The notes: generated by a model from the sequence alone, not told the origin. DNA of 24,000 nt from Alphaproteobacteria bacterium (GCA_028281925.1 JANQIX010000110.1:46271-70270), one strand, 5' to 3'; shown: positions 7,897 to 23,117, counted from the first letter of the stretch. Translations and numbers: made by a program.

Positions 7897-8043
7897 GATG
7901 CGGGGGGGCTCCGAGAGCAGGGCGACCGGATCTCCATTAGACACAACCAAGCTGGAGAATGCAAAGCTCCGCCCCGCAAATCGGCCGGATCGTGCGCATT
8001 GCAGGCGACGGATCGGCCCGCTAAGTATAGGCCGTACCTAAGC

Positions 8044-8134
8044 GGAGGGGTGGCCGAGCGGTTGAAGGCGCACGCCTGGAAAGTGTGTATACGTTAATCG
8101 CGTATCGTGGGTTCGAATCCCATCCCCTCCGCCA
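8044..8134 (+). tRNA. tRNA-Ser (anticodon GGA), class II with long variable arm, CCA encoded
   Basis: Acceptor stem GGAGGGG/CCCCTCC, discriminator G and encoded CCA (8132-8134). Anticodon stem CACGC/GTGTG with loop CTGGAAA, giving anticodon GGA. Long variable arm ATACG-TTAATCG-CGTAT. T arm GTGGG-TTCGAAT-CCCAT. Confidence 0.93.
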
Positions 8135-8712: not shown

Positions 8713-10113
8713 ATGCGCCGTCTGATCCTTCCCGCTCTGCTCTCATCGGCAGTTGCAATACCGCTTCCGAACACAGCGTGGGCGACGAGTGCGGACGAGA
8801 TCAGACGCCTCGAACAGCAGTTGCTGGAGCAGCGCGAGTTGCTCGAAGCCCAAAGGGCAGTTATTGAGGCCCAACAGGAGCAGCTTGATAGCCAGTTGCG
8901 CCAGCTGCAAGACCTGCAGACCAGCCTCTCAGCTGAGCCTCTGTCGGACGACGAGCTCGGCGAGGCTCGCGGCGGAGTGGGCCAGATGGTCTCGGCTCCG
9001 CTCATCTTGAGTTTTCCGTCGCTGGATGGTCAGAGTTTCCAGCCGTCGACGATCACGGCCAGCGTCTTCCCGGCTGCGTTCCCGGAGACCGTGACGGCCG
9101 ACCAGCTGCTGAGCCAGCAGACACCAGGGCAAGCACCGACGACGGAACCAGGCGGCCAAGGCACACCTCCTGGGGACGTCGACTCGGAAGACACCCCGCC
9201 AAGCGTGGAGCTGTTCCCCGAACGCGGCGGCGCACTTCTGCCACAGGGAACTTTAGTGTTTGAGCCTTCTGTTGAATACAACCTTTCGAATGTTAACCGA
9301 GTCGAGGTCGCGGGCTTCAGTGTCCTGCCTGCGATTCTTGTCGGTGAGTTCGCGGTGGAGTCGGTGGAGCGCGAAAACATTACCCCCGCCGTCTCTCTGC
9401 GCTACGGCATCACTGACCGTCTGGATGCCCAGGTTCGTATCCCCTACGTGTTTCGCAGCGAAGACTCCAGCCGACGACCAATTGGCGTCGGCGCTGATGA
9501 GGCCGAGCAGTTCAACACCACCGGCAACGGGCTCGGCGATATTGAGTTCGCGACCAACTATCAGATCAATCGAGGATTGGACGATTGGCCCTTCTTCATT
9601 GCCAATCTTCGCGTGCGCGTGCCAACCGGGCGGGACCCGTTCGAGATTGAGCGGGACGAAGACGGAAATGAATTGGAGCTCGCAACCGGCACAGGGTTTT
9701 TTGGTATACAGCCGAGCTTCACGGTGCTCTATCCGAATGATCCGGCCGTGTTATTCGCGAACCTCGGTTACACCTGGAACTTGGAGCGGGATGTCGGCGA
9801 CGAGTTCGGAGTCATCGATCCCGGCGATATTGTCAACCTCAGCGGTGGCGTCGGCATCGGGCTGAACGAACGCACATCCATTACCCTTGGCTATGATCAC
9901 CAGGTCGTGGGACGCACGAGCCAGGATGGCCAGATCGTCGATGGATCGCGGGTCCTCAACATCGGGCGGCTTCTGTTCGGCGCCTCGTTTCGCGTTTCTG
10001 ACAGTGTCGGCGTCAATCTGACGGTCGCCCCCGGCGTGACTGAAGACGCGCCCGACCTGACCGCGACCTTGCGCGTGCCGATCACCTTCCAAGATCTTTT
10101 CGGAAGCGATTAG
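8713..10113 (+). CDS. Outer-membrane beta-barrel protein with an N-terminal coiled coil (FapF-like architecture)
   Basis: 466 aa. Signal peptide MRRLILPALLSSAVAIPLPNTAWA|TS. Heptad-like coiled coil at about aa 27-72 (EIRRLEQQLLEQRELLEAQRAVIEAQQEQLDSQLRQLQDLQ). LSDDELGEARGG at aa 77-88. A P/T/Q/G-rich linker runs to about aa 175, followed by ~290 aa of alternating-polarity beta-strand sequence (e.g. VSLRYGITDRLDAQVRIPYVF, GLGDIEFATNYQI, FFIANLRVRVPTG, SITLGYDHQV, LTATLRVPITF). Confidence 0.8.
   Translation: MRRLILPALLSSAVAIPLPNTAWATSADEIRRLEQQLLEQRELLEAQRAVIEAQQEQLDSQLRQLQDLQTSLSAEPLSDDELGEARGGVGQMVSAPLILSFPSLDGQSFQPSTITASVFPAAFPETVTADQLLSQQTPGQAPTTEPGGQGTPPGDVDSEDTPPSVELFPERGGALLPQGTLVFEPSVEYNLSNVNRVEVAGFSVLPAILVGEFAVESVERENITPAVSLRYGITDRLDAQVRIPYVFRSEDSSRRPIGVGADEAEQFNTTGNGLGDIEFATNYQINRGLDDWPFFIANLRVRVPTGRDPFEIERDEDGNELELATGTGFFGIQPSFTVLYPNDPAVLFANLGYTWNLERDVGDEFGVIDPGDIVNLSGGVGIGLNERTSITLGYDHQVVGRTSQDGQIVDGSRVLNIGRLLFGASFRVSDSVGVNLTVAPGVTEDAPDLTATLRVPITFQDLFGSD
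8941..8976 (+). other. Double-glycine (C39-type) processing motif LSDDELGEARGG inside the barrel protein
   Basis: The codons CTG TCG GAC GAC GAG CTC GGC GAG GCT CGC GGC GGA were read directly. The block fits LSxxELxxIxGG at positions -12, -11, -8, -7, -2 and -1. Confidence 0.55.
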
Positions 10114-10401
10114 GCATCAACCACGCAACCGCGGGTGATCGATTGTTCTTTTGGGGGACTAGAGGCGCATCCTCAGGCTACAGGCAACCGATGTGCCTAC
10201 AAGCCTTGAACACGTCAGATGGATTAGGCCAGGTTTGATTAAGCCAGGGACCGATCAAGCCGCTGGGAAGCGAACGATACTTCCGCTCCGGCTGGCACCA
10301 CATTCCTTCAGGCGCATGCCTGTTTAGGCCGAACGACTTCGCACCACGACTTCGCACCGTGCTGACAACTCGGCGATTCCCTCCCAACGTGAACCTGCTC
10401 T

Positions 10402-10926
10402 TCAGCGGTCCCTGACTCTGGGCAGGGACAGAACCTCAGTGGTGTCGGCTGTCGTCGATGCGGATCGCGCGGGCCTCTCCGCCAAGACGACTCGGTGATT
10501 ACCATCGCGCCAGTGGTCATCGAAGCCACTCGCCGGGGACATTGCCTCGAGTGCCGTGATCGGCGCGCCGAGTGGCAACACGGCATGCTCCGGGATCACC
10601 TCTCTGCCGGAGGCTGTCGCCACCGCCACTCCCTGATATCCGGCCGCCGCGCCTGACCCGGCAGCGGTTGCAATGACGGCATCGTCCTCATTTTCGATGC
10701 AGATATCACCCCAAGTCACCGCCCGCCACATCGCGCAGTCTTCATCGGCGACGGCGGAGAGCGCGTGGTCCATGATCATCTTGTCTGTGGCGACCAGCAC
10801 GGCCCCATCGATCGCATAGCCGGCAACAATCATGGGCAATGGCAGGGCACAGGCTGTGAGGGCCGCCGCCCCGAAGACAGCGGTGGCGGCAGGCAGATAG
10901 GGTCGTCTCTTCACTTGGGCCTCCAT
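10402..10926 (-). CDS. Hypothetical lipoprotein (last gene of the repeat-protein operon)
   Basis: Part of ORF 10402..11004; the start is taken at ATG 10926 (MEAQVKRRPYLPAATAVFGAAALTAC|ALPLP). A lipobox-like L-T-A-C follows a hydrophobic h-region. No family recognised. Same strand as the 182-aa gene, 67 bp downstream of it. Confidence 0.55.
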   Translation of the reverse strand: MEAQVKRRPYLPAATAVFGAAALTACALPLPMIVAGYAIDGAVLVATDKMIMDHALSAVADEDCAMWRAVTWGDICIENEDDAVIATAAGSGAAAGYQGVAVATASGREVIPEHAVLPLGAPITALEAMSPASGFDDHWRDGNHRVVLAERPARSASTTADTTEVLSLPRVRDR

Positions 10927-10993
10927 GTTCCTGGAGGTCCGACGATGCTCTGCCGGCCTCCAGTTTGTTATCGTGATGCCATGTGAGTTGCCA

Positions 10994-11542
10994 TCACAGG
11001 CCAAGTAAGCCGGCTTCGATCAGTGCGTTGGCGAGGTTGTTTGCTTGGATGCTCGACATGTCGAGATCGAGCGTCAACTCGATGCCGGTGTTCTGCTGTA
11101 TGATGATGTTGTCGAGATTGTTTTGGATAACGGAGAACAAGCCGGACCCGGCGATATCGCCAAGCATGTTGCTGTCGGGGGTGCCCCCCTGCAGGCTGAC
11201 GATGATGCTGCTGTTGGTTTGCTCGATTGCGGTGGTCACCTGACTGCCGAGGACATTGTTCACCTCCGGATCCCCGACCAGCACCCCATTCTCCAGAACC
11301 GCCTGGAAAGTGAAGCTGCTGAGCTCGCTGCCGTCCGCGCCGGCAACCAACCCGGTCATGTCGATCCCGAAGCTCACGAAACCGGCGCTGGTCAGGAAGC
11401 CACCGCGCAGATCCGCCAGCTCTTCGTTCGAGAGCCGCCGCTGCGACCACAAATCGTCTTCGGCCATCGCCGGAGCCAGCTCTGCCAGCAACGGCGTTGC
11501 CATGACCCAGAGCGCTAACGCCAAAGTGCTTTTGCCACGCAT
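10994..11542 (-). CDS. Secreted accessory protein with a GG-leader motif and degenerate IQNN-type repeats
   Basis: ORF 10994..11551 starts on a GTG. The ATG at 11542 has GGGAGG 10 nt upstream. Signal peptide MRGKSTLALALWVMATPLLAELAPAMA|ED, then LSNEELADLRGG. The C-terminal half has AIEQTNSSIIVSLQGG and FSVIQNNLDNIIIQQNT (nt 11087-11137). Confidence 0.7.
   Translation of the reverse strand: MRGKSTLALALWVMATPLLAELAPAMAEDDLWSQRRLSNEELADLRGGFLTSAGFVSFGIDMTGLVAGADGSELSSFTFQAVLENGVLVGDPEVNNVLGSQVTTAIEQTNSSIIVSLQGGTPDSNMLGDIAGSGLFSVIQNNLDNIIIQQNTGIELTLDLDMSSIQANNLANALIEAGLLGL
11399..11434 (-). other. Double-glycine processing motif LSNEELADLRGG
   Basis: The reverse complement reads CTC TCG AAC GAA GAG CTG GCG GAT CTG CGC GGT GGC. 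This fits the LSxxELxxIxGG consensus, including Leu at -4. Confidence 0.55.
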
Positions 11543-11560
11543 GGCTTCCACGCCTCCCGG

Positions 11561-12283
11561 TTAGAATGTGAATTCGTTCAATCCCGGCATCAGCAGCGTT
11601 ATGTCCGACAGGTTCTGTACGGTCAGCGCCGAGCCCAGCGGGGCCAGAGCGCGAATGCGCCAATCTGCTGCCACGTTGAACCGCTGCTGCCCGCTCTCCA
11701 TTGCATTCGTCACGACGAAGAGGATGCCGTTCCACATTGCCTCAAACTGATCTCTTGGGATGATCTTCATGCCGAAGGCCGGATCACCCACCAGGACCTC
11801 GTTTTCGGTCACGCCCTTGATCACCACAAAGTGCAAGTAGCCGTTCAGGTTTATCAGCGTGACCCCGGGGATGCCAACTTCGACCAACTGATCCAGCGAC
11901 GCCTCGAACCCATCGGACTCGAGCCCGATCGTTGCAAGGTAGGTCTTCATGTCGAGCATGGAAAAGCCGCGGGTCCGGATGGCTTCCTGATCGCCGTTCT
12001 CCCACATGTGCTCGAACACGGCCTGCTCGGTCGTCGGAACGCCGTAATGGTAGGTGAGCAAGGTTGCGACCGAGGCCGAGCCGCAGCTGAAGTCGTACTG
12101 CTGCGGCACGACGGCGTTGTACCGCGCCTCTCGGATACTGGTGACCGTCGTGTTGAACGAGAAACCGCCGACGATCGTGGTGACGTCGGCGGCGGTCGCC
12201 TTGTGCGGTCCGGCCGCCGCGGCAACGAGGGCGACGGCGGCCAGCCTGCACAGCCCCAGCCTTGTCTTTGACAGTGTGATCAT
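11561..12283 (-). CDS. Stand-alone C39-family cysteine peptidase with a Sec signal peptide (predicted periplasmic, FapD-like)
   Basis: 240 aa. Signal peptide MITLSKTRLGLCRLAAVALVAAAAGPHKATA|AD. C39 signature VVPQQYDFSCGSASVATLLTYHYG has Gln 6 residues before Cys67 (codon 12083-12085). LHFVVIKGVTENEVLVGDPAFG contains His151 and Asp167, 16 residues apart. Its ATG overlaps the TGA of the upstream 115-aa gene (ATGA). Confidence 0.88.
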   Translation of the reverse strand: MITLSKTRLGLCRLAAVALVAAAAGPHKATAADVTTIVGGFSFNTTVTSIREARYNAVVPQQYDFSCGSASVATLLTYHYGVPTTEQAVFEHMWENGDQEAIRTRGFSMLDMKTYLATIGLESDGFEASLDQLVEVGIPGVTLINLNGYLHFVVIKGVTENEVLVGDPAFGMKIIPRDQFEAMWNGILFVVTNAMESGQQRFNVAADWRIRALAPLGSALTVQNLSDITLLMPGLNEFTF

Positions 12284-12627
12284 TGCACGATAACGCTCAG
12301 CATTGTGTTCACCTGGATGATCGAGTTGTTGCCGTTGTTCTGGATCACCGTGAACGCGCCGGCCGCATTCTGAAACGCATCTGCGGCGATGGAATTGCTG
12401 GCATTGAACGGGCCCGTGATGTTTGAGGTCACGTTGCTGATCTCCGCCGACAGTGCGGCAAAGTCGGCATCGAGACCTTGCAGCGAGCCGCCGCGTGCCT
12501 CCGCCAGTTCTTCCGTAGAGATCGGGTTCCCGCCAAGAAGCCGGCTGACCTCTTCTTGGGCCTTAGCCGTATGTCCCGTGCCTGCGATGGCTAACGCCGC
12601 GACACAGAGAATTATACCCTTGGTCAT
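12280..12627 (-). CDS. Small secreted protein: signal peptide + GG-leader motif + a single QNNG-family repeat (candidate nucleator/cap)
   Basis: Part of ORF 12280..12648. The ATG at 12627 is preferred, with GGGAGG 5 nt upstream (complement of 12633-12638). Signal peptide MTKGIILCVAALAIAGTGHTAKA|QE, then ISTEELAEARGG. The mature ~68 aa end in DAFQNAAGAFTVIQNNGNNSIIQVNTMLSVIVQ. Confidence 0.75.
   Translation of the reverse strand: MTKGIILCVAALAIAGTGHTAKAQEEVSRLLGGNPISTEELAEARGGSLQGLDADFAALSAEISNVTSNITGPFNASNSIAADAFQNAAGAFTVIQNNGNNSIIQVNTMLSVIVQ
12487..12522 (-). other. Double-glycine processing motif ISTEELAEARGG
   Basis: Codons were checked one by one on the reverse strand (ATC TCT ACG GAA GAA CTG GCG GAG GCA CGC GGC GGC). 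Confidence 0.55.
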
Positions 12628-12668
12628 CAAAGCCTCCCGAAACAGCATACTTAACCGAAGAGCGTGAA

Positions 12669-12732: not shown

Positions 12733-15700
12733 TTACGGCCGCGTGAAGCTTGCCGTAACCGAGATGGACGAGCTGATCACGTTGCCCGAACCGTTGTTCT
12801 GGGTGACCGACACAACCCCAGCCGCTCCGTTGAACGAGTCGGTGATCGTGTTGTTGAGCCCAGTGGAGCCGGCCGGGATGACCGTATCGACCGTGACGTT
12901 GGAGGTCGCACCGGCCAGTGTCGCGGTCGACACCGCAGTGCCAAACCCGACGTCACCGCTCGGCGCACCGCCAGAGCCCACCTGCTCCGCACCGACGCTG
13001 ACCGCCGTTCCCAGCACATTGGCATCGCCGTTGTTCTGGGTCACGGTCGCCACGCCCTGGAAGCTCTCGAACGAGTCGCTGATCGTGTTGTCGGGGCCGA
13101 CAGCACCCAGCTGCTGATAGATCTCGATCGGAGCCCCAGGCGCCCCAACGGTACCGGTCACGTCAGACGAAACCGTGCTGGAACCTGCCACGTCCGCGTT
13201 GTCACCCAGCGTGGCCGATACGCCGATGGCCGTTGTCGCCACATTGCCGTTCCCGTTGTTCTGGAACACGGCGAAGATCCCCTCGGCACCATCGAACGAG
13301 GCGTCGATGAAGTTCGACCGATTGCCGAAGAACTGCCGGTCACCCGGCGCACCGAACACCAGACCGCTCACATCGCCGCCGGCCTCGACCACCGAGGCGA
13401 CCGTGTCGATATCGTCTGCATCGACCAGGGCCACCACGCCAATCGAAGTGCCGATGACGTTGCCGGTACCGTTGTTCTGCTGAACCGAGACCACACCGCT
13501 CGCGCCGTCGAAGGAGTCGGCGACGATGTCGTTGTCTCGGAGGTTGCTCTCCAAGATCGCGCCATCGTCAACCTCGCTGACCGTGCCGAAGGCGCGGATC
13601 AACGATTGCGTGGAGCTCTCTGCGGCAGGAGTGGCGCCAGCCTGGCCCGTGCGAACGTCGGCCGACACGGCGATGGCGGAGAACATGGCGTTACCGTCGC
13701 CATTGTTCTGCTGGACCGTCAGCGTGCCGGTATACGAGTCGAACGAGTCAGTGATCGTATTCAACCGCGGGCTTTCCGTATCGACGAAGGTGATGATGTC
13801 TTCGATGTCCACGGACATGTCGACCGACTGGGTGACGTTGTTCGCGGTCGCACCGGGCCCGCTGCCGAACACCGCGGTACCGGAGAAGATGAAGTTTCCG
13901 CCACCGTTGTTCTGCTGAGCCGTGACGATGCCCGAAGCGTCGTCGAACGCCCCACCGACGAGGAGGTTGGTACGAGCCCCGTCCGGCGTGGCGGCGGACC
14001 CGAACGTGAGCCCCGACAGCGTCGGCGGGACACCGTCCAGGCTGATCGTCTGATCAACCGTCAACGTCTCTTCGTCGTCCGCATCGCCGACCAACGCCGT
14101 TGCCGCCGCCAGAACGTTGCCGTCACCATTGTTCTGCTGAATGGTGGCGACACCTGAGTACCCGACGAATGCCGAGGTCAGGTCGTTCAGACGCAGGCTG
14201 TTGTCGGAGAGCACCGTGAGATCGCTGACCTGGTTCGTACCGGACGCGGCATCGATCGTCTGGTCGACGTTCTCCGGGCCGTTACCCACATAGGCCAGCA
14301 CCGCCACGTCTTCGATCATCACGTTGGCGTCGCCGTTGTTCTGCTGAACATCGACCACACCCGCGAAGCCGTCAAACGCGCCCGGTTCGACCCTATTGGT
14401 GCGCACGTCATCGGCTGCCGACACGAGCGCGAACGAGACCACTGTTTCAACGAATGTGATCTCTTGGGCCGCGTCACTGAGGAACCCGGTCGATCCCACA
14501 ATGGCGTTGTTGGCCGTCATCACGTTCACATCGCCGTTGTTCTGCTGAACCGTGGCAATGCCGCCGGTGCCCGGGCCCGTGAAGGCGCCGCCACCGATGG
14601 TGTTCGTCCGCGTTCCGCCAGCGCTGATCAGGTTCAGATCGAAGGTCAGGTTCCCGGCGACCGTTCCGGCCGACCCGATGGTCTGGGTCACCGTGCCAGT
14701 CGGGCCGAGCAGCAGGCCATCAGCCGACCCCAGCACCGCATTGTTGATCTGCATGGCGTTGAGGTTGCCGTTGTTCTGCTGAACATTGGCGATCCCCGCC
14801 GAGCCGGAGAAGGCCGTGCCGCCCACCAGGTTGGTGCGTGTCTCACCGCTAATCAGGATGTCGATATCGGCATCCAGCGTCGCGATGATATCCGCATCCG
14901 ACGTGATCGTCTGATCGACCGGCAGCCCCGCCGCCTGCAGCAGGACACCACCAGCCAAGCCGACCACGGCGCTGTTCGCCCCAATCGCGTTCAGGTTGCC
15001 GTTGTTCTGCTGAACCGTGGCAATCCCGTTCGAGCCGGAGAAGGCACCGCCGTCGATCGTGTTGGTCGCAACCTCTGTTCCCAGCGTCAGGAACTCGAGA
15101 TCCACTGTCGCATCCAACAGGTGCAGCGTGTCGGACGACACGACCTGATCGACTTCACCGACCGCACTGAGGGCGAACCCGGCCGCGCCGAGCACCGCGG
15201 TGTTGGCGGTGATCGAGTTCAGGTCACCATTGTTCTGCTGAACCGTGGCGACGCCGTCCGAGCCCGAGAACGCGCTGCCAGTGATCGTGTTGGTATCCGT
15301 ATCACCGAGCAGCAAGGAGATATCGATCCCCGCCTCGAACACGTGGGCAGCGCTGGAGCTCACGCTCTGATCCACGCTTCCCGCGCCGATGGCGGCAAGA
15401 CCTGACACACCGACGATCGCATTGTTGATCGTCATGGCATTGATGTTGCCGTTGTTCTGCTGAGCATTCACGACACCGGCGGACCCTGCGAAGGCCATGC
15501 TGTCGATCAGGTTCTCCCGATCGCCGCCGGACAAGATGTTGATGTCGAACGCCGCGTTGAGCGCCAGCAAGTCGGCCGAGGTGATGCTCTGGACCACCGT
15601 TCCCGTCGCGTTGAACGAAAGCCCAACTGCACCGACAACCGCGTTGTTGATGGCGAGTGCATTGATGTCGCCGTTGTTCTGCTGAACGCTGGTCAGACCC

Positions 15701-18700
15701 GCTGCACCTTCAAACGCTTCGTCGCTGATCAGGTTGTCGCGGCTGCTGTCCGCGATGCCCAGATCGATGGCCAAGTCGAGTGCCAGTGTGGCTTCCGACG
15801 TGACCGTCTGCGTGATGCTATCGGTCAGCCTGAAGTCGAAGCCACCGACCCCGATGATCGCATTGTTGATACCGAGACCGTTCACGTTGCCGTTGTTCTG
15901 CTGAACGCTGGTCACGCCTTCGACACCCTCGAACGCGTCGTCGGTGATCGTGTTGGCACGCGCACCAAGGACATTGAGGTCGGCATCGAGAGCCAGGTTG
16001 AAGATGATGTCGGTGCTGGAGCCGGCCACCTGCGTGACGTCGCCGAACGGCCCCAGTTGGGCTCCGCCGGCCACGCCGACGACCGCACTGTTGATGTCCA
16101 GCGCGTTCACGTCGCCGTTGTTCTGCTGCACGCTGGTCATGCCGGAGATGCCGTTGAACGACCCCGCGTCGATCGTATTCGTGCGGAAGCCGAGGATGTC
16201 GATCGCACCGTTGGCGGTGAGGTCGACTTCCGACATGGCCGTCTGGGTCACATCCGCGCCGATCGCCAGCGCCCCGTCGGTCAGGCCGACCACGGCGTTG
16301 TTGATGCCGAGCGAATTGACGTTGCCATTGTTCTGCTGCGCGGCGATCAGGCCCGACGTCGCGAGGAACGCCGCATCCGTGATCGAATTCGTCCGTGCGC
16401 CGCCCAGGACGTCAGCATCTACCACGAAGCTGCCATCGATGCTGACGGTCGACGTGGCCTCTTGATCCACGAAACCGACTGCACTGAGCGAGAACCCGGC
16501 CACACCCACGACGGCGTTGTTGATGCCCATCGCATTGATGTCGCCGTTATTCTGCTGGGCGCTGACGATGCCGCTCGCGAAGGCGAACGCCCCCGCATCG
16601 ATATCGTTGTCCCGCACGCCGCCGAAGAACAGGGTGACATCTGCGGCCGTGTTGTCCAGCAGGCTGACATCAGACGTGGCGTCCTGGAACACGAAGCCGG
16701 TCGCGCTGAGCGCGATGCCTGTGGTCCCGGAAACCGCATTGTTGATGCTGAGCGCATTCACATCGCCGTTGTTCTGTTGAACGCTCAGCAGACCGGCTGC
16801 AGCGACGTTGGCGATGTCGCTGATGTCGTTGGTGCGCGCACCACCACCGAAGATGCCCAGATCGATGGCCGTGTTGCTGTCCAGCTCTACGAGCGAGCTG
16901 GCCGACTGGACGATAGCGAAGGTCGCGCTCGCCGACAGCCCAACCGTTCCCATCACTGCGTTGTTGATGTTCAGCGCATTGATGTTGCCGTTGTTCTGCT
17001 GGGCATTGATGACGCCAGCCGCCGTCGCGAAGGCAGCGCCATCGATCGTGTTGTCCCGGTCACCGCCGCCCAGGGCGCTGACGTCAAGCGCGCCACCCAG
17101 GGTCAGGTCCGTGTCGGAACTCGCCGTCTGGAACGCCACGCCAGTCAGGCTGGCAGAGGCGCCGACACCGCCGATCACCGCATTGTTGGCGCTGATGGCA
17201 TTCAGGTCGCCATTGTTCTGCTGAACATTGACAACTCCAGCGAAGCCAGCGAAGGCGCCGTCCGTCAGTGTGTTCGTGCGGTCACCGCCAAACACGCTGC
17301 CGTCCACGGCCAGCGTGAAGACAGTGTCAACTGACGAGGTGGCGTCCTGATCCACAAGGCCATTGGCCGTGAGGGTCAGGCCGTTGGCGCCGACGACCGC
17401 ATTGTTAACGTCCATCGAGTTCAGGTTGCCGTTGTTCTGCTGAACGCTGGCGATCCCGCTGCCGCCTGCGAAGGCAGCGTCGTCGATGGTGTTGGTCCGC
17501 GTACCCTGGATGTCGATCGCAGCCGCGATGGCGTTGACGACAGTCGAGGATGCATCTTGCGTGATGAAGCCGAGCTGAGCCAGAGCGCCGGCCGACACGC
17601 CAACCACCGCATTGTTGGTGCTGATGGCATTCAGGTCGCCGTTGTTCTGCTGAACGTTGACGATGCCGTTTGCGCCGGTGAAGGCAAGGTCGGTGAGGGT
17701 ATTCGTCCGATCACCGCCCAGGATCTCCAGATCCACCGCCACGTTGAAGGCGAGCCCGCTGTCTGAGTCGGCAGTCTGGATCACCGGACCACTGGCGCTG
17801 GCGCCGAAGCCCGCAACGCCAACGACGGCACTGTTCACGCCCATGACGTTCACGTTGCCGTTGTTCTGCTGGACAGTGGTGATCCCGTTGGCCACCAGGA
17901 AGGCGCCAGCGTTGACCACGTTCGCGCGATCACCACCCCCGATCTGCACATCCAATGCTGCATCGAACAGCAAGAAGGCATCCGATTCGGCCACCTGCGT
18001 AACGATGCCCGTTCCCGTCAGGCCGAGGCCCGCTGTTCCGAACACCGCTGTGTTGGCAGAGATCGAGTTCAGATCGCCGTTGTTCTGCTGAACATTGACG
18101 ATGCCGTCCGACGCGATCGAGGCGATGCCCGTGATCGTGTTCAGGCGATCGCCACCACCCAGCAGCCCGACATCGATTGCCGTGTCGCCCAGGAGCGTTG
18201 CCGTGGAGGTCGCCGACTGATCCAACGTCCCGGAGAGGCTTACGCCGGCGCCGGACGCACCGACGATGGCGTTGTTGATGCCCATGGCGTTCAGGTCGCC
18301 GTTGTTCTGCTGAACGTTGACGACACCATCCACCAGCGCAAAGGCAGCACCACCGACTACGTTGCTGCGTGCGCTGCCGCCGAGGAAGTCGAAGTCGACG
18401 GTCGTGCTGAGAGCGATATCCTGATCCGAGCCGGCGGTCTGCGTCGTCGCCCCAGCAGCACTGATCGAGATACCCACGGCACCCATAACCGCGTTATTGA
18501 TGCCGAGTGCGTTCAGGTCGCCGTTGTTCTGCTGAACGTTGGCGATACCGTCGAAGACCGAGAACGCTGTACCGGTGATCACATTGTCTCGGCCACCGCC
18601 GCCTAGGAGATCCAGGTTCAGCGTCGCACCCAGGGCCAGATCGACATCGGAAGTCGCGCTCTGGTCGACGGTCGAATTCAGGCCCAGGTTGATCCCGATC

Positions 18701-21700
18701 GCGCCGACCACGGCGGAGTTGGCGTCGATCGAGTTCAGATCACCGTTGTTCTGCTGCACGCTTGCGAGGCCGGCTGCTCCGGAGAAGGCCGATCCGCTGA
18801 TGGAATTGTCGCGGGCGCCGAACCCAAGAGCATCGACATCGATCCCCGCATTCAAAGCGGCATCGACGGTCGAGCTAGCGGACTGATCGATAGCGCCGAG
18901 CACAGCCACGTTGATACCGCCGCTGGAGCCAACGACGGCATTGTTGATGTCCATGCTGTTGAGGCTGCCGTTGTTCTGCTGGATAGCCGCGATGCCGTTG
19001 GCACCGGCAAACGCCGCACCGTCGATCGTGTTCTCCCGATCGCCGCCCAGATCGATAGCCAAGTTGATCAGGAAGTCGACGTCGGAAGCCGCCACCTGGC
19101 TTATGCCACCGATCGCACCCGTGAGGCTTGGCGCCGTGGCCCCGAGCACCGCGTTGTTGATCTGCAGCGCATTCAGGTCGCCGTTGTTCTGCTGGATGTT
19201 CGCGATACCTGCGGCGCCGGTGAAGGCACCCGTGATCGTGTTGCTGCGGTCACTCAGCAGGTCAAGCGTCGCGTTGACGGTCAAGAGAGCGGTCGAAGTG
19301 GCCGACTGCACGACCGGCACACCTGACAGCACGATGGCCGGGCCGATCGAGCCCACCACGCCGTTGTTGGTCTCAAGCGTGTTCAGCGTGCCGTTGTTCT
19401 GCTCGATATTGGCGATGCCCGTGGCACCAGCGAACCCACCGGGAATCGTGTTGGTGCGCGAACCGAACAGATCGGCCGTGGCGCCGAAGGCCACGATCGC
19501 CGGGCTGTTCACATCCTGCGTGACGCTGGTCGCGACACCAAGCGCACCGACCACGGCGTTGTTGATCTGCAGCGAGTTGAGGTCACCATTGTTCTGCTGA
19601 ACGTTGATGATCCCGCTCGCGCCATCAAACGCACCGGCGGCGATCGTGTTCGTCCGCGTCGTGGCAATGCCGATCTCCAGATTGCCAGCCAGCGTCGTCA
19701 GCTCAATCGTCGAACTCGGGGTCTGCGTGATCGCACCGGTCGCACCGGTCACGCCCACCACCGCGCTGTTGATGTCCATCGCATTCAGGCTGCCATTGTT
19801 CTGTTGAACGCTGGCCACGCCCGTGAAGCCGTCGAAGACGGGATCGGCGATGAAGTTGTCGCGGGTACCCGCGATGTCGACGGCCAAGTTGCCCAGGATC
19901 GACACGGTCGTGCCGACGTCCTGATCGATGGCACCGGTGGAGCTAGCCACACCGACGATCGCAGTGCCGATTGAGACAATGTTGGCGTCACCGTTGTTCT
20001 GCTGGACGTTCGCCACGCCCGCGGCCCCATTGAAGCCGTCTTCCAGCAGGTTGGACCGGACGTCGCTCGGGTCGACCGCGACCGAGCTCAGGATATCCGC
20101 CGTCTTGACGATGTCCTGATCGATGGCGCCAGTCGCGCCGACGATGCCGACAATGGCATTGCCGATGACGATGGCATTACCGCTGCCATTGTTCTGCTGA
20201 ACGTTGAGAACGCCGGTCGCACCGTTGAAGGACCCACCGGCCAGGCCGATGTTGTTGTCCAGCGTGGAGGAACCGACGCGGATCACCTCAACATCGTCGA
20301 CTTCGGCATCCAGCGTGACGGCCTGCGTGATGCTGCCGGAACCGCCGAGGCCCGCGCCGAGAGCGGCCGCATCGCCGGCGATCGCGCTGGCGACCTGGAT
20401 GGCATTCGCATGGCCGTTGTTCTGCTGAACGGTGACCACGCCGGCGGCATCGGTGAACGCTTGGTCGATGTCGTTGCTGCGGTCGGCGCCGCTGCCCGAA
20501 ACATCGATGTCGACGATGAAGCCATCGAGCGTGGCGAAGGCATTCGTGGTCTGCGAGATCGCCCCGCCCACTGACGCCGTCGCACCGATGACCGCATTGG
20601 CCACGTCCATCGCGTTGGCGTGACCGTTGTTCTGCTGCACGGTCAGAACACCCGACGCGTCGCGGAACGACCGTTCGATCAGGTTGATTGCCGTCGGGAA
20701 GCCGATATCGTCAACATCGGTGCTGCCCAGAACGGTGGAGAAACTGCCAGCCGTCTGATCGATAGACCCGATCGTGCCGCCAGGTGACGCCAGCCCCAGA
20801 ACCGCATTGGCGTTGGAGATGGCATTGCCATCGCCGTTGTTCTGCTGGGCCGTAAGGACACCGCTGAAGCGGTCAGCGGAGTTGATGGTCAGGTTCCGAT
20901 AGTCGGTTGCATTGGAATCCGCGCTGGTCAGGAGGATCGTCGAAGCCGACGTCGCGTCCTGTGTGACCGCGCCGTCCACGCCGCCGGTGATACCCGCAAT
21001 GGCGTTGGCGATCCCCATCGCATTGCCATCGCCGTTATTCTGCTGGACAGCCGCGAGACCGACTGCGTCGTCGAACGCCCGGCGGATCACATTGTTTCGA
21101 TCCAGCGCAAACGCAAAGCTGCCGGGCTGCGTGTTGGTCGTGTTCAGGGCTATGGTGCCGCCGGTCAGGGCCGACTGCGTAACGGCGTCCGTGTCTTCCG
21201 GCGAACCCAGAAGGACGGCCGTCCCGCCGACGAGACCGGTAACTGCATTGGCAATGCCCATGGCGTTGCCGCTGCCGTTGTTCTGCTGAACCGCCATGAT
21301 GCCGGCGGTGGAATCGAAGGAGTCGCGGATCCTGTTCCGGCGATCGGTACCTTGATCAACCGTGTCAACGAGGACCGAAAGGCCGACGGTCGAAGCGGTG
21401 TTGGTGATGGCGCCGACATCCGCGATGGCTGCAACGATGCCGTGCGCTGCCGTTGCAACGCCCATCGCATTGATGTCGCCATTGTTCTGCTGCACATGGA
21501 TGATGCCGGCAGCGCCATTGTAGGAGCTGTCTTGGACGAAGTTCTGCCGCTCCCGCGTGGCGTCGGAGCCGTCGCCGATTGCGGTCGCACTGCCAAAGGC
21601 GACGATATCGGTGACCGCAGCCACGGTCTCGATGTCAGCGCCGTCGGGTGCCAGGTCGCCATTCACCGCGATGGCGCTACCGAGCACGTTCCCGTCGCCA

Positions 21701-21924
21701 TTGTTCTGCTGGCTGACCAGGACACCTTCCGCACCCAGCGTGAACGAATTGAGGATCGTGTTGAGCTCACCGCCCGATCCGCCCGCAGACTGATCATCCA
21801 CGACGACACCGGAGGCGGAAGACGCCGTGACAGAGGCACTCGCCAAACTCTGCGCCTGTGCAGCGGCGCCGAAGCCGATCGTCAGAGCCAGGAGGGACAC
21901 GCCCCCTAAAAGAGTATTCCTCAT
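12733..21924 (-). CDS. Giant (3,063 aa) Sec-exported repeat protein with 42 QNNG-core repeats; candidate fibre/adhesin or functional-amyloid-like subunit
   Basis: One uninterrupted 9.2-kb ORF. ATG at 21922-21924 with GGGAGAGG upstream. Signal peptide [24 protein letters not shown]|QS. I counted 42 occurrences of the core x(V/I/A)(Q/T/E/F)QNNGxxN, each inside a ~65-77-aa unit such as (D/T)R(T/D)N(T/x)Ixxx(A)Fxg(A/x)xG(I/V)xxVQQNNG(D/N)xNAxxINNAVVGxxG...(T/D)Q...D. The composition is dominated by A/G/N/V/S/T/D/I/L/Q, and I saw no Cys or Trp on reading. The protein ends right after a repeat (...GVVSVTQNNGSGNVISSSISVTASFTRP). Confidence 0.9.
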   Translation of the reverse strand: MRNTLLGGVSLLALTIGFGAAAQAQSLASASVTASSASGVVVDDQSAGGSGGELNTILNSFTLGAEGVLVSQQNNGDGNVLGSAIAVNGDLAPDGADIETVAAVTDIVAFGSATAIGDGSDATRERQNFVQDSSYNGAAGIIHVQQNNGDINAMGVATAAHGIVAAIADVGAITNTASTVGLSVLVDTVDQGTDRRNRIRDSFDSTAGIMAVQQNNGSGNAMGIANAVTGLVGGTAVLLGSPEDTDAVTQSALTGGTIALNTTNTQPGSFAFALDRNNVIRRAFDDAVGLAAVQQNNGDGNAMGIANAIAGITGGVDGAVTQDATSASTILLTSADSNATDYRNLTINSADRFSGVLTAQQNNGDGNAISNANAVLGLASPGGTIGSIDQTAGSFSTVLGSTDVDDIGFPTAINLIERSFRDASGVLTVQQNNGHANAMDVANAVIGATASVGGAISQTTNAFATLDGFIVDIDVSGSGADRSNDIDQAFTDAAGVVTVQQNNGHANAIQVASAIAGDAAALGAGLGGSGSITQAVTLDAEVDDVEVIRVGSSTLDNNIGLAGGSFNGATGVLNVQQNNGSGNAIVIGNAIVGIVGATGAIDQDIVKTADILSSVAVDPSDVRSNLLEDGFNGAAGVANVQQNNGDANIVSIGTAIVGVASSTGAIDQDVGTTVSILGNLAVDIAGTRDNFIADPVFDGFTGVASVQQNNGSLNAMDINSAVVGVTGATGAITQTPSSTIELTTLAGNLEIGIATTRTNTIAAGAFDGASGIINVQQNNGDLNSLQINNAVVGALGVATSVTQDVNSPAIVAFGATADLFGSRTNTIPGGFAGATGIANIEQNNGTLNTLETNNGVVGSIGPAIVLSGVPVVQSATSTALLTVNATLDLLSDRSNTITGAFTGAAGIANIQQNNGDLNALQINNAVLGATAPSLTGAIGGISQVAASDVDFLINLAIDLGGDRENTIDGAAFAGANGIAAIQQNNGSLNSMDINNAVVGSSGGINVAVLGAIDQSASSTVDAALNAGIDVDALGFGARDNSISGSAFSGAAGLASVQQNNGDLNSIDANSAVVGAIGINLGLNSTVDQSATSDVDLALGATLNLDLLGGGGRDNVITGTAFSVFDGIANVQQNNGDLNALGINNAVMGAVGISISAAGATTQTAGSDQDIALSTTVDFDFLGGSARSNVVGGAAFALVDGVVNVQQNNGDLNAMGINNAIVGASGAGVSLSGTLDQSATSTATLLGDTAIDVGLLGGGDRLNTITGIASIASDGIVNVQQNNGDLNSISANTAVFGTAGLGLTGTGIVTQVAESDAFLLFDAALDVQIGGGDRANVVNAGAFLVANGITTVQQNNGNVNVMGVNSAVVGVAGFGASASGPVIQTADSDSGLAFNVAVDLEILGGDRTNTLTDLAFTGANGIVNVQQNNGDLNAISTNNAVVGVSAGALAQLGFITQDASSTVVNAIAAAIDIQGTRTNTIDDAAFAGGSGIASVQQNNGNLNSMDVNNAVVGANGLTLTANGLVDQDATSSVDTVFTLAVDGSVFGGDRTNTLTDGAFAGFAGVVNVQQNNGDLNAISANNAVIGGVGASASLTGVAFQTASSDTDLTLGGALDVSALGGGDRDNTIDGAAFATAAGVINAQQNNGNINALNINNAVMGTVGLSASATFAIVQSASSLVELDSNTAIDLGIFGGGARTNDISDIANVAAAGLLSVQQNNGDVNALSINNAVSGTTGIALSATGFVFQDATSDVSLLDNTAADVTLFFGGVRDNDIDAGAFAFASGIVSAQQNNGDINAMGINNAVVGVAGFSLSAVGFVDQEATSTVSIDGSFVVDADVLGGARTNSITDAAFLATSGLIAAQQNNGNVNSLGINNAVVGLTDGALAIGADVTQTAMSEVDLTANGAIDILGFRTNTIDAGSFNGISGMTSVQQNNGDVNALDINSAVVGVAGGAQLGPFGDVTQVAGSSTDIIFNLALDADLNVLGARANTITDDAFEGVEGVTSVQQNNGNVNGLGINNAIIGVGGFDFRLTDSITQTVTSEATLALDLAIDLGIADSSRDNLISDEAFEGAAGLTSVQQNNGDINALAINNAVVGAVGLSFNATGTVVQSITSADLLALNAAFDINILSGGDRENLIDSMAFAGSAGVVNAQQNNGNINAMTINNAIVGVSGLAAIGAGSVDQSVSSSAAHVFEAGIDISLLLGDTDTNTITGSAFSGSDGVATVQQNNGDLNSITANTAVLGAAGFALSAVGEVDQVVSSDTLHLLDATVDLEFLTLGTEVATNTIDGGAFSGSNGIATVQQNNGNLNAIGANSAVVGLAGGVLLQAAGLPVDQTITSDADIIATLDADIDILISGETRTNLVGGTAFSGSAGIANVQQNNGNLNAMQINNAVLGSADGLLLGPTGTVTQTIGSAGTVAGNLTFDLNLISAGGTRTNTIGGGAFTGPGTGGIATVQQNNGDVNVMTANNAIVGSTGFLSDAAQEITFVETVVSFALVSAADDVRTNRVEPGAFDGFAGVVDVQQNNGDANVMIEDVAVLAYVGNGPENVDQTIDAASGTNQVSDLTVLSDNSLRLNDLTSAFVGYSGVATIQQNNGDGNVLAAATALVGDADDEETLTVDQTISLDGVPPTLSGLTFGSAATPDGARTNLLVGGAFDDASGIVTAQQNNGGGNFIFSGTAVFGSGPGATANNVTQSVDMSVDIEDIITFVDTESPRLNTITDSFDSYTGTLTVQQNNGDGNAMFSAIAVSADVRTGQAGATPAAESSTQSLIRAFGTVSEVDDGAILESNLRDNDIVADSFDGASGVVSVQQNNGTGNVIGTSIGVVALVDADDIDTVASVVEAGGDVSGLVFGAPGDRQFFGNRSNFIDASFDGAEGIFAVFQNNGNGNVATTAIGVSATLGDNADVAGSSTVSSDVTGTVGAPGAPIEIYQQLGAVGPDNTISDSFESFQGVATVTQNNGDANVLGTAVSVGAEQVGSGGAPSGDVGFGTAVSTATLAGATSNVTVDTVIPAGSTGLNNTITDSFNGAAGVVSVTQNNGSGNVISSSISVTASFTRP
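12775..21715 (-). repeat. Array of 42 diverged tandem coding repeats, period about 195-240 bp
   Basis: On the + strand the 12-mer (G/A)TTGTTCTGCTG (the reverse complement of Q-Q-N-N codons) recurs at, for example, 13471, 13702, 13906, 14128, 14335, 14536, 14770, 15001 ... 21276, 21481 and ~21701. The flanking sequence is diverged, so these are imperfect repeats rather than recent identical copies. Confidence 0.9.
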
Positions 21925-22511: not shown

Positions 22512-23117
22512 TCAGCTTTGCGGAACCAGCAAGGCGACCAAGGTTGTCAGATCGGGCAACCCGGTTGCCTCGAGCTCGTTCTGCTCTTGAAATTCCGAAA
22601 TGGCGGCTTGCGTTCCCGGGCCGAACACGCCGTCAGCCTCGCCGTCATAGAGCTCAAGCTCGGCCAGTCTCTCTTGGGCGCGGCGCAACAGCTCAACGGG
22701 CAGGCTTACGCTCTCTTCTCCGGAAACGACGTCCACTCGCTCGGACTGTTCGGCCAGCGCCAATGGACGAAGCAGCGAAGCCGTGGCGGTCACGGCCTCG
22801 CCAAAGCGCGCCTGGGGCGTTCGATCGCAGATATTGGCGACTATGGCCGTCAGGGCGTCGATGTTGTGCACGGGGCTGATGTCGTAGACGCCCTCCGTCA
22901 GCAGGTTCACCGCCGAGAAGTGGCCATTAATCCAAGACCGGAACGCCAGCACCAAGGGATCGCTGTCCTCCAGCGCCTGCGTGAAGGTCTCGCAAGTCTC
23001 AAACCCCTCTCCCTTGATGACGTAGTTTCCGTCTGTGTCCGCGGCTTCGACGGTAGGTACAGAGATCGCCGCAGTGCCGAGGAGAGCGGCCAACAGAGCT
23101 GAGCCGTAGTGACGCAT
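22512..23117 (-). CDS. Secreted protein with a C-terminal peptidoglycan-binding (PG_binding_1-like) domain
   Basis: Part of ORF 22512..23441. The start is taken at ATG 23117 (MRHYGSALLAALLGTAAISVPTVEA|AD), preceded by a perfect AAGGAGG (complement of 23123-23129). The C-terminus, RAQERLAELELYDGEADGVFGPGTQAAISEFQEQNELEATGLPDLTTLVALL, matches the LxxLGxYxGxxDGxFGxxTxxAVxxFQ pattern. The N-domain is unassigned. Confidence 0.72.
   Translation of the reverse strand: MRHYGSALLAALLGTAAISVPTVEAADTDGNYVIKGEGFETCETFTQALEDSDPLVLAFRSWINGHFSAVNLLTEGVYDISPVHNIDALTAIVANICDRTPQARFGEAVTATASLLRPLALAEQSERVDVVSGEESVSLPVELLRRAQERLAELELYDGEADGVFGPGTQAAISEFQEQNELEATGLPDLTTLVALLVPQS

What the first reader, a model, noticed from the sequence alone, without database searches (positions are those of the whole stretch)
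8941..12522. Canonical double-glycine leader motifs placed after Sec signal peptides in three proteins, next to a periplasmic C39 peptidase
Three proteins share a 12-residue block ending in Gly-Gly:
- barrel protein: LSDDELGEARGG (8941-8976)
- 182-aa protein: LSNEELADLRGG (11399-11434)
- 115-aa protein: ISTEELAEARGG (12487-12522)

Aligned on the GG, all three fit the classical bacteriocin/peptide-pheromone leader consensus LSxxELxxIxGG. The fit holds at -12 (L/I), -11 (S), -8 (E), -7 (L), -2 and -1, with L or A at -4. That consensus is the recognition element of C39 peptidases, and an apparently active C39 gene lies between two of the motif-bearing genes.

Unusual points:
1. The motif sits 10-20 residues after a normal AxA signal-peptidase site rather than at the N-terminus of a cytoplasmic precursor. 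This implies sequential Sec export and then periplasmic C39 cleavage.
2. In the barrel protein the motif lies exactly between the coiled coil and the linker/barrel. Cleavage there would detach the coiled-coil domain from the channel.
3. The giant protein itself lacks the motif. Its N-terminus has only SAGGSGG, without E-8/L-7.
Basis: partly seen in the sequence, partly recalled or inferred. Interest (0 to 1): 0.88.

Follow-up and report, generated by a model that had tools for sequence, protein, structure and literature searches.

The report
Periplasmic double-glycine leaders, Fap-like system
Three exported proteins of a Fap-type (Pseudomonas functional-amyloid-like) secretion locus carry a bacteriocin-style "…L..xRGG" leader next to a secreted C39 peptidase. 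The same leader sits beside this peptidase family in most related genomes, so it gives a concrete, testable candidate for the still-unknown cleavage site of FapD-type proteases.

Summary
The three 12-residue blocks are exactly where stated, and they are the only matches in all six frames (0.015 expected).

The locus is a distant relative of the Pseudomonas Fap system. It holds:
- a FapF-like barrel with a coiled coil;
- a secreted FapD-like C39 peptidase with Cys/His/Asp intact;
- a FapE-like protein;
- a small one-repeat subunit;
- a 3063-aa subunit of 43 repeats.

Across 80 related genome loci:
- the gene just downstream of the peptidase carries [LM]xxxRGG[FYML] in 75 of 80 (0.012 expected per window). 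Positions −12, −7 and −4 are hydrophobic, as in classical double-glycine leaders;
- the small upstream gene carries an RGG leader in about 39 of 80;
- the barrel motif is a minority feature, found in 23 of 121 barrels (3.8 expected).

AlphaFold puts a short helix before RGG and disorder after it, in both proteins modelled.

Classical Pseudomonas FapE has the homologous block but reads RGR, never RGG (77 of 80). That probably explains why no canonical site was seen there.

Sec export followed by FapD processing of FapE and FapF is already the field's working hypothesis, with the site unknown. Cleavage remains untested. Verdict: a new variant of a known system, of moderately high interest.

The parts
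8713..10113 (+). FapF-like outer-membrane barrel (466 aa). Layout: signal peptide, coiled-coil helix 26-74, leader-like motif 77-88, disordered linker to about residue 170, plug region, 12-strand-type barrel from residue 181.
   Evidence: NCBIfam FapF E=2e-40, below the equivalog cutoff; Pfam Phenol_MetA_deg. PDB FapF 5O65 E=2.7e-26 over residues 157-459. AlphaFold mean pLDDT 78.8.
8941..8976 (+). Leader-like motif LSDDELGEARGG at the end of the coiled coil.
   Evidence: A comparable Phi..xRG[GA] motif occurs in the same region of 23 of 121 barrels, against 3.8 expected. It is identical in the near-identical locus L087.
9208..9231 (+). Second EL....GG element (ELFPERGG), just before the barrel.
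   Evidence: It aligns to the FapF plug-helix segment. It is part of a conserved PPEVxxxx[DE]RGGVL block found in alphaproteobacterial barrels. It has an acidic residue at -4, so it is probably a structural plug element rather than a leader.
10402..11004 (-). Unannotated gene of about 170 aa between the FapE-like gene and the barrel (gene call 10402-10914). Possible lipoprotein (…AALTAC…).
   Evidence: Called as a gene in L082 and L087. No Pfam or NCBIfam hit. No homologue in L001-L080.
10994..11551 (-). FapE-like protein (182 aa from Met at 11542). Layout: signal peptide, leader, RGG, beta-rich core, C-terminal VIQNN..IIQQN strand motif.
   Evidence: NCBIfam FapE matches the N-terminal region only, E=1e-4. 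In the family alignment A3, RGG is invariant. AlphaFold: helix 39-46, low confidence 45-54, beta domain from residue 55.
11399..11434 (-). Leader motif LSNEELADLRGG, followed by Phe.
   Evidence: [LM]..xRGG[FYML] lies within 1.3 kb downstream of the C39 gene in 75 of 80 loci, against 0.012 expected.
11561..12283 (-). Secreted stand-alone C39 cysteine peptidase (FapD-like, 240 aa).
   Evidence: Pfam Peptidase_C39 E=9e-19. NCBIfam FapD E=7e-47 (below cutoff) and FilB E=7e-33. Q61/C67/H151/D167 are invariant. PDB LahT150, PCAT1 and ComA match.
12280..12648 (-). Small subunit (115 aa from Met at 12627). Layout: signal peptide, leader, then one copy of the giant protein's repeat at its C-terminus.
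   Evidence: The repeat HMM hits residues 84-115 (E=0.007). phmmer finds homologues in 50 related loci.
12487..12522 (-). Leader motif ISTEELAEARGG.
   Evidence: Upstream-class leaders (FGxPVxxxxLxxxRGG[TSA]) lie within 0.9 kb upstream of the C39 gene in about 39 of 80 loci. Weak match to the leader part of Pfam Lactococcin (E=0.017).
12733..21924 (-). Giant repeat protein (3063 aa). Signal peptide plus 43 repeats of about 73 aa, consensus GG.R.NTI...AF.GA.G...VQQNNGD.NA..INNAVVG. It has no leader motif and is the presumed major secreted fibre or adhesin subunit.
   Evidence: No hit in my Pfam or NCBIfam scans. The near-identical orthologue in L087 has a precomputed weak PF27129 FapBC hit.
22512..23441 (-). 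Protein with a C-terminal peptidoglycan-binding domain. Possible accessory component.
   Evidence: Pfam PG_binding_1 E=2.5e-14. PG_binding_1 genes also flank the large repeat genes in L083 and L084.

Best explanation
**What the locus is.** It is a Fap-type two-step secretion system in an uncultured, probably marine alphaproteobacterium. All components are exported by Sec.

**What the motif is.** In the periplasm, the FapE-like protein and the small one-repeat subunit still carry an N-terminal propeptide. Its last 12-16 residues form a short amphipathic helix ending in Arg-Gly-Gly. This is a double-glycine-type leader, with hydrophobic residues at -12, -7 and -4.

**How it most likely works.** The adjacent secreted C39 peptidase (a FapD homologue) binds this leader and most likely cuts after Gly-Gly. 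This is how C39 domains of peptidase-containing ABC exporters treat bacteriocin leaders. Processing would license these minor subunits, and with them the leaderless giant repeat protein, for passage through the FapF-like barrel.

**The barrel copy.** In this genome the barrel carries the same leader at the junction of its coiled coil and disordered linker. There it would act either as a cleavage site that detaches the coiled coil or as a docking site that holds the peptidase at the channel.

**Shown versus inferred.**
- Shown: the anatomy, the homology to Fap components, the family-wide conservation and placement of the motif, and the intact catalytic residues.
- Inferred: binding, cleavage after GG, and the consequence for secretion.
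For: 1. **Fap homology.** The barrel matches the FapF structure at E=2.7e-26. The peptidase matches FapD at E=7e-47. The FapE-like N-terminus matches FapE at E=1e-4.
2. **Active peptidase.** The catalytic Gln/Cys/His/Asp are invariant and the protein has an N-terminal signal peptide.
3. **Downstream gene.** The motif lies just downstream of the C39 gene in 75 of 80 loci, against 0.012 expected. With a hydrophobic -12 also required, it is 66 of 80.
4. **Upstream gene.** A leader is present in about 39 of 80 loci.
5. **Logo of the FapE-like class (n=65).** Hydrophobic residues at -12 in 98% and Met/Leu at -4 in 92%; -7 is Leu/Met, but the collecting pattern required that. Ser at -11 in 43%, Glu at -8 in 38%.
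6. **RGG is invariant.** RGG accounts for three of the five invariant columns in the fast-diverging FapE-like family.
7. **Modular behaviour.** The same leader precedes three unrelated downstream sequences: the FapE core, the small-subunit core and the barrel linker. It always abuts the conserved FapE core, whatever the length of the N-terminal region (20 to about 400 residues). That includes apparently membrane-anchored coiled-coil forms in L015 and L037, which would need cleavage to be released.
8. **Structure models.** AlphaFold puts a short helix before RGG and disorder after it, in both proteins modelled.
9. **Leader resemblance.** All three window leaders weakly hit the leader positions (10-24) of Pfam Lactococcin, at E=0.017-0.17.
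10. **Experiments in Pseudomonas.** The FapD catalytic Cys is required for secretion. No FapE peptide is detected before residue 72. Peptide coverage is absent over the FapF linker.
Against: - No experimental N-termini or cleavage assays exist for any member.
- Pseudomonas-type FapE has RGR[YF] at the homologous place in 77 of 80 loci. Arg at -1 is not a known C39 site.
- Fixed Arg at -3 and near-invariant Phe at +1 are not features of classical leaders. They could mean the block is part of a folded or binding element.
- In L084 the small upstream proteins read …TRAA or …ARAT instead of RGG.
- Only about 19% of barrels have the motif, and the next-closest relatives below about 65% C39 identity lack it.
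- The matches to bacteriocin-leader models are below their thresholds.
- The FapE-like AlphaFold model is of modest confidence (mean pLDDT 66.6, 14-sequence alignment).
Confidence: 0.6

Rival explanations
1. The motif is a recognition or targeting signal that is bound but not cleaved at Gly-Gly. It would dock substrates, and the barrel's own periplasmic arm, onto the FapD-like protein or the FapF coiled coil. This would resemble the inactive C39-like domains of haemolysin-type exporters, which only hold their substrate. Any cleavage would occur elsewhere, for example in the linker after the FapE N-domain, as Rouse et al. suggested.
For: - Pseudomonas FapE keeps the whole block but has RGR instead of RGG.
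- Conservation continues past the GG into F..G...FGI..NG.
- Rouse et al. placed the likely FapE processing at the boundary between the N- and C-terminal conserved regions, and the first peptide seen starts at residue 72.
- The barrel copy would make sense as a tether.
Against: - The catalytic triad is invariant across the family, and the Cys is required in Pseudomonas.
- The Gly-Gly pair itself is the most conserved feature in non-Pseudomonas members, as expected for a scissile site.
- The membrane-anchored long-pro-region forms need release.
Confidence: 0.22
2. The block is a structural element unrelated to the peptidase, for example a helix-turn that starts the fold of FapE-like and small-subunit proteins or a chaperone-binding site. 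Its likeness to bacteriocin leaders would then be coincidental, and the barrel copy in this genome a chance or lineage-specific oddity.
For: - Arg at -3 and Phe at +1 are atypical for leaders.
- Matches to leader HMMs are sub-threshold.
- The barrel motif is absent from most barrels.
Against: - The motif appears in three non-homologous contexts, always beside a C39 gene. Enrichment is more than 1000-fold downstream and about 6-fold in barrels.
- The unconstrained positions -12 and -4 follow the leader rule.
- AlphaFold places RGG in a disordered stretch outside the folded domain.
Confidence: 0.13

Closest known systems
Pseudomonas Fap functional-amyloid system (FapA-F; Dueholm 2010/2013, Rouse 2017)
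   Same: - FapF-type barrel with an N-terminal coiled coil, disordered linker and plug.
- Periplasmic C39 peptidase (FapD).
- FapE-like protein directly after the peptidase gene, with a homologous N-terminal block.
- Asn/Gln-rich repeat subunits.
- A major subunit without N-terminal processing.
- The working hypothesis that FapD processes FapE and the FapF periplasmic region.
   Different: - All matches fall below the NCBIfam equivalog cutoffs.
- No FapA was found.
- The major subunit is a 3063-aa, 43-repeat protein not recognised by the FapBC model in my scans.
- The barrel gene is on the opposite strand.
- The small subunit and the barrel also carry the leader.
- The leader ends in RGG here but in RGR in Pseudomonas.
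Double-glycine leader peptides and peptidase-containing ABC transporters (PCAT1, ComA, LahT; class II bacteriocins, e.g. lactococcin A)
   Same: - C39 fold with the Cys/His/Asp triad.
- Leader with Gly-Gly at -2/-1 and hydrophobic residues at -4, -7 and -12. Ser at -11 and Glu at -8 are frequent.
- Helical leader followed by a flexible GG.
- Weak HMM match to the lactococcin leader.
   Different: - The peptidase is a free secreted protein, not the cytoplasmic domain of an ABC exporter.
- The leader follows a Sec signal peptide (or a long pro-region) rather than starting the precursor.
- Arg at -3 is fixed in the sequences collected.
- Cargo leaves through an outer-membrane barrel with no known energy source.
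Curli (CsgA/B/E/F/G)
   Same: - Sec-exported, unfolded Asn/Gln-rich repeat subunits are secreted through a dedicated outer-membrane channel.
- A minor nucleator and a minor anchor subunit are involved.

   Different: Curli has no peptidase and no leader cleavage. Its channel (CsgG) and repeat family are different.
Acinetobacter 'Fil' putative pilus system (NCBIfam FilB/FilC)
   Same: The C39 peptidase and the barrel give secondary hits to FilB (E=7e-33) and FilC (E=3.5e-10).
   Different: Both hits are far below the cutoffs. I found no literature on it in the library, and Fil substrates were not examined.
LapG/LapA (periplasmic cysteine protease trimming a giant repeat adhesin at a di-alanine site)
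   Same: A periplasmic Cys protease acts on the N-terminal part of an outer-membrane-associated giant-adhesin system. This is an analogy from my own knowledge.
   Different: The protease family is different and secretion is type I. There the giant protein itself is cut; here the giant protein lacks the motif.

Membership tests
Fap system (Pseudomonas type) | FapF: trimeric 12-strand barrel with a plug helix and an N-terminal periplasmic coiled coil. | tested here: met
   PDB FapF E=2.7e-26 over residues 157-459. The AlphaFold model has a long helix at 26-74, disorder, then the barrel. The NCBIfam FapF score of 138.8 bits is below the 700-bit equivalog cutoff. Trimer state is not testable here.
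Fap system (Pseudomonas type) | FapD: Sec-exported stand-alone C39 peptidase with a catalytic Cys. | tested here: met
   NCBIfam FapD E=7e-47, 159.5 bits against a cutoff of 330. Cys67, His151 and Asp167 are invariant.
Fap system (Pseudomonas type) | FapE encoded directly after fapD. | tested here: inconclusive
   Only the N-terminal 65 residues match the FapE model (E=1e-4, 21.6 bits against a cutoff of 250). Gene position and the leader/FGI block are shared with Pseudomonas FapE.
Fap system (Pseudomonas type) | FapB/FapC amyloid subunits (Pfam FapBC repeats). | tested here: not met
   The giant protein and the small subunit have no FapBC hit at E<=10. The only signal is a precomputed 'weak' FapBC hit on the near-identical L087 orthologue. 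My repeat HMM does not hit Pseudomonas FapB or FapC.
Fap system (Pseudomonas type) | FapA chaperone and a fapABCDEF single-operon order. | tested here: not met
   No FapA-like gene was found. The order is giant - small - D - E - unknown on the minus strand, with the barrel on the plus strand.
Double-glycine (C39-processed) leader peptides | Gly-Gly (or GA/GS) at -2/-1 with hydrophobic residues at -4, -7 and -12 (consensus LSxxELxxIxGG). | tested here: met
   Window motifs confirmed. In two of the three, position -4 is Ala. Family logo.
Double-glycine (C39-processed) leader peptides | The leader is the extreme N-terminus of a cytoplasmic precursor without a Sec signal. | tested here: not met
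   All three motifs follow N-terminal hydrophobic signal sequences: about 10-13 residues after the predicted cleavage sites in the small proteins, and after a 50-residue coiled coil in the barrel.
Double-glycine (C39-processed) leader peptides | The processing peptidase is the N-terminal domain of an ABC exporter. | tested here: not met
   The peptidase is a 240-aa stand-alone protein with its own signal peptide. No ABC transporter was found among the window's annotated ORFs, most of which were scanned against Pfam.
Double-glycine (C39-processed) leader peptides | Cleavage after Gly-Gly by the cognate peptidase. | not testable with these tools
   This needs N-terminal mapping or an in vitro assay.

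The most novel reading that the evidence does not exclude
The RGG leader may be the general address tag of a very widespread but uncharacterised outer-membrane secretion pathway. The pathway would consist of a stand-alone periplasmic C39 peptidase plus a FapF-type barrel. More than 4000 peptidase homologues were found across many phyla. It would work as a periplasmic counterpart of peptidase-containing ABC exporters. Leader binding and cleavage by the peptidase would select substrates and gate the barrel. Copies of the leader on the barrel's own arm would make the channel itself a substrate or tether of its peptidase, giving self-regulation. The pathway would export giant repeat adhesins as well as amyloids. 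Pseudomonas Fap would then be a derived member (RGR) that has obscured the rule.
Probability: 0.35. Interest if true: 0.78.

Novelty: new variant of a known kind. Interest (0 to 1): 0.62.

Why it matters
FapD is essential for Fap amyloid secretion, yet reviews from 2018 to 2025 still say its substrate and site are unknown or only 'thought' to be FapE and FapF.

This window, and the roughly 75 loci that share the motif, supply a specific and falsifiable site: after …L..[ML]RGG, before Phe. They also explain why the site was missed in Pseudomonas, where it reads RGR.

If correct, the finding does three things:
- it defines how substrates are selected in a widespread two-step secretion route for fibres and giant adhesins;
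- it extends double-glycine leader biology from the cytoplasm to the periplasm;
- it gives a simple sequence tag for finding the cargo of thousands of unannotated C39-barrel loci.

The Fap system is also a biofilm target in Pseudomonas aeruginosa.

Tried and rejected
1. **Strict acidic -8 pattern on barrels.** [ED]Φ....G[GA] matched only 3 of 70 barrels and first suggested the barrel motif was unique. A pattern based on the family logo (Φ..xRG[GA]) showed it recurs in 23 of 121.
2. **Second EL....GG in the barrel (9208-9231).** Rejected as a leader. It aligns with the FapF plug helix and has an acidic -4.
3. **Single-sequence search of 1.84 billion representatives with the FapE-like protein.** It gave only 14 hits, because the family diverges fast. 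One hit, a 3058-aa repeat protein (P0128), looks spurious.
4. **Foldseek of the FapE-like model against the PDB.** No significant match.
5. **Retrieving full Pseudomonas FapE from published peptides.** This returned only fragments, and two contig look-ups lacked the N-terminus. It was solved through the P. synxantha locus and a metagenome scan with FapD.
6. **Recent duplication of the motif.** Excluded by DNA alignment.
7. **Literature searches.** Searches for a defined FapD site, for periplasmic C39 leaders and for the Fil system found nothing beyond the hypotheses cited.
8. **Peptidase-leader complex prediction.** Not possible, because only single window or database sequences can be submitted.

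Full report
**1. The observation**

The three blocks translate exactly as reported. LSDDELGEARGG is at 8941-8976 on the plus strand. LSNEELADLRGG (11399-11434) and ISTEELAEARGG (12487-12522) are on the minus strand.

They lie in ORFs of 466, 185/182 and 122/115 aa. The strict pattern [LIVM]S..EL....GG occurs only at these three places in the six-frame translation, against 0.015 expected from shuffled sequence. DNA similarity between the sites is limited to the motif codons, so they are not a recent duplication.

The C39 gene (11561-12283, minus strand) lies between the two small genes. All five proteins of the cluster start with a basic and hydrophobic segment followed by an AxA-like site. This was judged by eye.

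**2. What the locus is**

The locus is a distant relative of the Pseudomonas Fap functional-amyloid system.
- **Barrel.** It matches NCBIfam FapF (E=2e-40) and the FapF crystal structure (E=2.7e-26 over residues 157-459).
- **Peptidase.** It matches FapD (E=7e-47) and aligns over its catalytic core with the LahT150, PCAT1 and ComA peptidase domains.
- **182-aa protein.** Its N-terminal 65 residues match FapE (E=1e-4).

All scores are below the equivalog cutoffs, so this is a relative, not an orthologue.

The 3063-aa protein consists of 43 repeats of about 73 aa, with consensus …AF.GA.G…VQQNNGD.NA..INNAVVG. The 115-aa protein ends in one such repeat. The FapE-like family ends in a related VIQN.LDN..IQQ strand. 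The giant protein got no Pfam or NCBIfam hit from me. Its near-identical orthologue in L087 carries a precomputed weak FapBC hit.

A near-identical syntenic locus exists in GCA_028285185.1 (L087), with all three motifs unchanged. A 72%-identical FapE-like protein comes from a Tara Oceans contig. The best peptidase relatives are alphaproteobacterial MAGs. An alphaproteobacterial, marine origin is therefore inferred, not shown.

**3. What is published about Fap**

- FapD is periplasmic, and its catalytic Cys is required for FapC secretion.
- FapE is the only Fap protein lacking N-terminal peptides over its first ~70 residues.
- GG/GA motifs precede the FapF barrel construct (PMC5557850).
- The published peptide table shows the first FapE peptide starting at residue 72.
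[quoted passage not shown] I found no paper that defines a site or a motif.

**4. Conservation of the motif**

*The peptidase family.* It is very large: 4112 hits at E<=1e-5, mostly secreted proteins of about 230 aa. Gln61, Cys67, His151 and Asp167 are invariant.

*The comparison set.* I fetched 80 genome loci spanning alpha-, beta-, gamma- and delta-proteobacteria, Nitrospira, a Chloroflexota MAG and a Bdellovibrio-like MAG. A FapF-like barrel is co-located in 68 loci (the count includes the window).

*Downstream gene (FapE-like).* The pattern [LM]..xRGG[FYML] occurs within 1.3 kb downstream of the peptidase gene, on the same strand, in 75 of 80 loci. The background is 0.012 per such window. 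With a hydrophobic residue also required at -12, it is 66 of 80.

*Upstream gene (small subunit).* An RGG leader followed by T/S/A/E lies within 0.9 kb upstream in 39 of 80 loci.

*Logo of the downstream class (n=65).* RGG and a hydrophobic -7 were required by the collecting pattern; the other positions were free.

| Position | Content |
|---|---|
| -12 | V/L/I/A, 98% hydrophobic |
| -11 | Ser 43% |
| -8 | Glu 38% |
| -7 | Leu/Met |
| -4 | Met/Leu, 92% |
| -3 | Arg |
| +1 | Phe 83% |

The upstream class adds Phe-Gly at -16/-15 and has a variable -4.

*Other checks.*
- In an independent alignment of 14 FapE-like proteins, RGG is invariant and accounts for three of only five invariant columns.
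- None of these proteins outside Pseudomonas matches any NCBIfam model.
- All three window leaders weakly match the leader positions (10-24) of Pfam Lactococcin, at E=0.017-0.17, below threshold.

**5. The motif behaves as a module**

The leader always abuts the conserved FapE core (F..G…FGI…NG), however long the preceding region is. Some loci have pro-regions of 190-400 residues. L015 and L037 appear to have a membrane anchor plus a long coiled coil before …KLGEMRGA|ISFG and …ELDRMRGG|FSVG. Such forms could reach the outer-membrane channel only after proteolytic release.

AlphaFold of the window's FapE-like protein (mean pLDDT 66.6) gives a helix at 39-46, low confidence at 45-54 (RGG is 46-48) and a beta domain from residue 55.

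The barrel model (mean pLDDT 78.8) gives a helix at 26-74, a short helix at 79-84, disorder at 84-170 and the barrel from residue 181. This confirms that the barrel motif (residues 77-88) sits exactly at the end of the coiled coil.

**6. The barrel motif is not universal**

With the family-derived pattern Φ..xRG[GA], 23 of 121 non-identical barrels carry it in the periplasmic arm, against 3.8 expected from shuffles.

Examples:
- Ralstonia: …GRLDTVRGAG…
- Lysobacter: …ERLEGERGAG…
- Pelagibius and Kiloniellaceae: …QLLSQSRGGR…
- P0203 and P0185: …DLGEIRGAG…, close to the window's …ELGEARGG.

The barrels of the next-closest loci (L084, L085) lack it. It is therefore a recurrent accessory feature, not a family rule.

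The second EL....GG in the barrel (9208-9231) aligns with the FapF plug helix. It belongs to a conserved PPEVxxxx[DE]RGGVL block. I do not count it as a leader.

**7. The Pseudomonas comparison**

In the P. synxantha fap locus (L081) and in 77 of 80 Pseudomonas-type metagenomic loci, FapE begins …FKPIELKDsEMAELRGR[YF]VMPGRIISFG. This is clearly the homologous block, but it ends in Gly-Arg, never Gly-Gly. Neighbouring gammaproteobacteria such as Halomonas-type loci have RGGF.

This probably explains why no canonical site was seen in Pseudomonas. It is also the main argument against an obligatory cut after a Gly-Gly pair. In L084 the small upstream proteins have also lost GG.

**8. Mechanism and probabilities**

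*Best explanation (0.6).* The RGG block is the recognition element, and most likely the cleavage site, of the FapD-like peptidase on Sec-exported minor subunits. Processing primes secretion of these subunits and of the leaderless giant subunit through the barrel. The barrel's own copy acts either as a cleavage switch that detaches the coiled coil or as a tether for the peptidase.

*Rivals.* Binding without cleavage at GG (0.22). A structural element unrelated to the peptidase (0.13).

*Shown:* anatomy, homology, conservation, placement and intact catalytic residues. *Inferred:* binding, cleavage and the functional consequence.

**9. Novelty**

The pathway logic (Sec export, then a periplasmic C39, then a FapF barrel) and the two suspected targets (FapE and FapF) are already in the literature as hypotheses.

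New here:
- a defined leader of double-glycine type;
- its conservation next to this peptidase family far beyond Pseudomonas;
- its presence on a second class of subunit and on a minority of barrels;
- a giant 43-repeat cargo.

I rate this a new variant of a known kind, with interest 0.62.

Noticed in passing
window 22512-23441 (-): A 309-aa protein with a C-terminal PG_binding_1 domain lies next to the giant gene. PG_binding_1 genes also flank the big repeat genes in L083 (4700-5296) and L084 (5854-6474). This suggests a conserved accessory component of this alphaproteobacterial locus type.
   Followed up: partly
window 10402-11004 (-): An unannotated gene of about 170 aa lies between the FapE-like gene and the barrel. 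It may be a lipoprotein (…AALTAC…). It has no family hit and no homologue in the 80 related loci, but is conserved in L087.
   Followed up: partly
window 9208-9231 (+); L001, L002, L007, L012, L044, L046, L070 barrels: A conserved PPEVxxxx[DE]RGGVLxxxG block lies immediately before the barrel in alphaproteobacterial FapF-like proteins. It aligns to the FapF plug helix and also contains Arg-Gly-Gly. Rouse et al. speculated that FapD cuts near this junction.
   Followed up: partly
window 12137-12166 (-), peptidase residues ~40-49: The mature N-terminus of the C39 peptidase itself has a conserved G-G-x-F-N-V segment (…TTIVGGFSFNT…; Gly40 nearly invariant in alignment A1), about 9 residues after its signal-peptide site. 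It could be a structural strand or a self-processing or pseudo-substrate element.
   Followed up: no
L015 10687-11979, L037 10593-11744, L026 10683-12251, L016 10755-12107: These FapE-like proteins have N-terminal extensions of 270-400 residues before the RGG/RGA/RAG block. The extensions include an apparent membrane anchor plus coiled coil in L015 and L037. L016 has an R-A-G variant and L015 an R-G-A variant.
   Followed up: partly
L081 7646-8387: fapE in the P. synxantha assembly CP027757.1 is split over two reading frames (N-terminal ORF 7646-8056, C-terminal ORF 7989-8387). This is either a frameshift or a sequencing error, and the gene was called as a 128-aa fragment.
   Followed up: no
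L084 2959-4023, L085 4268-5449, L088 3106-4290, L081 9791-11113: Sigma-54-dependent activator genes accompany many related loci, including Pseudomonas fap. None was seen within this window.
   Followed up: no
L084 6922-15639: This locus holds two tandem sets, each made of a large repeat protein (853 or 862 aa), a 106-aa small protein and a FapE-like protein, but only one peptidase. Both of its small proteins have lost the Gly-Gly pair (…TRAA…, …ARAT…).
   Followed up: partly
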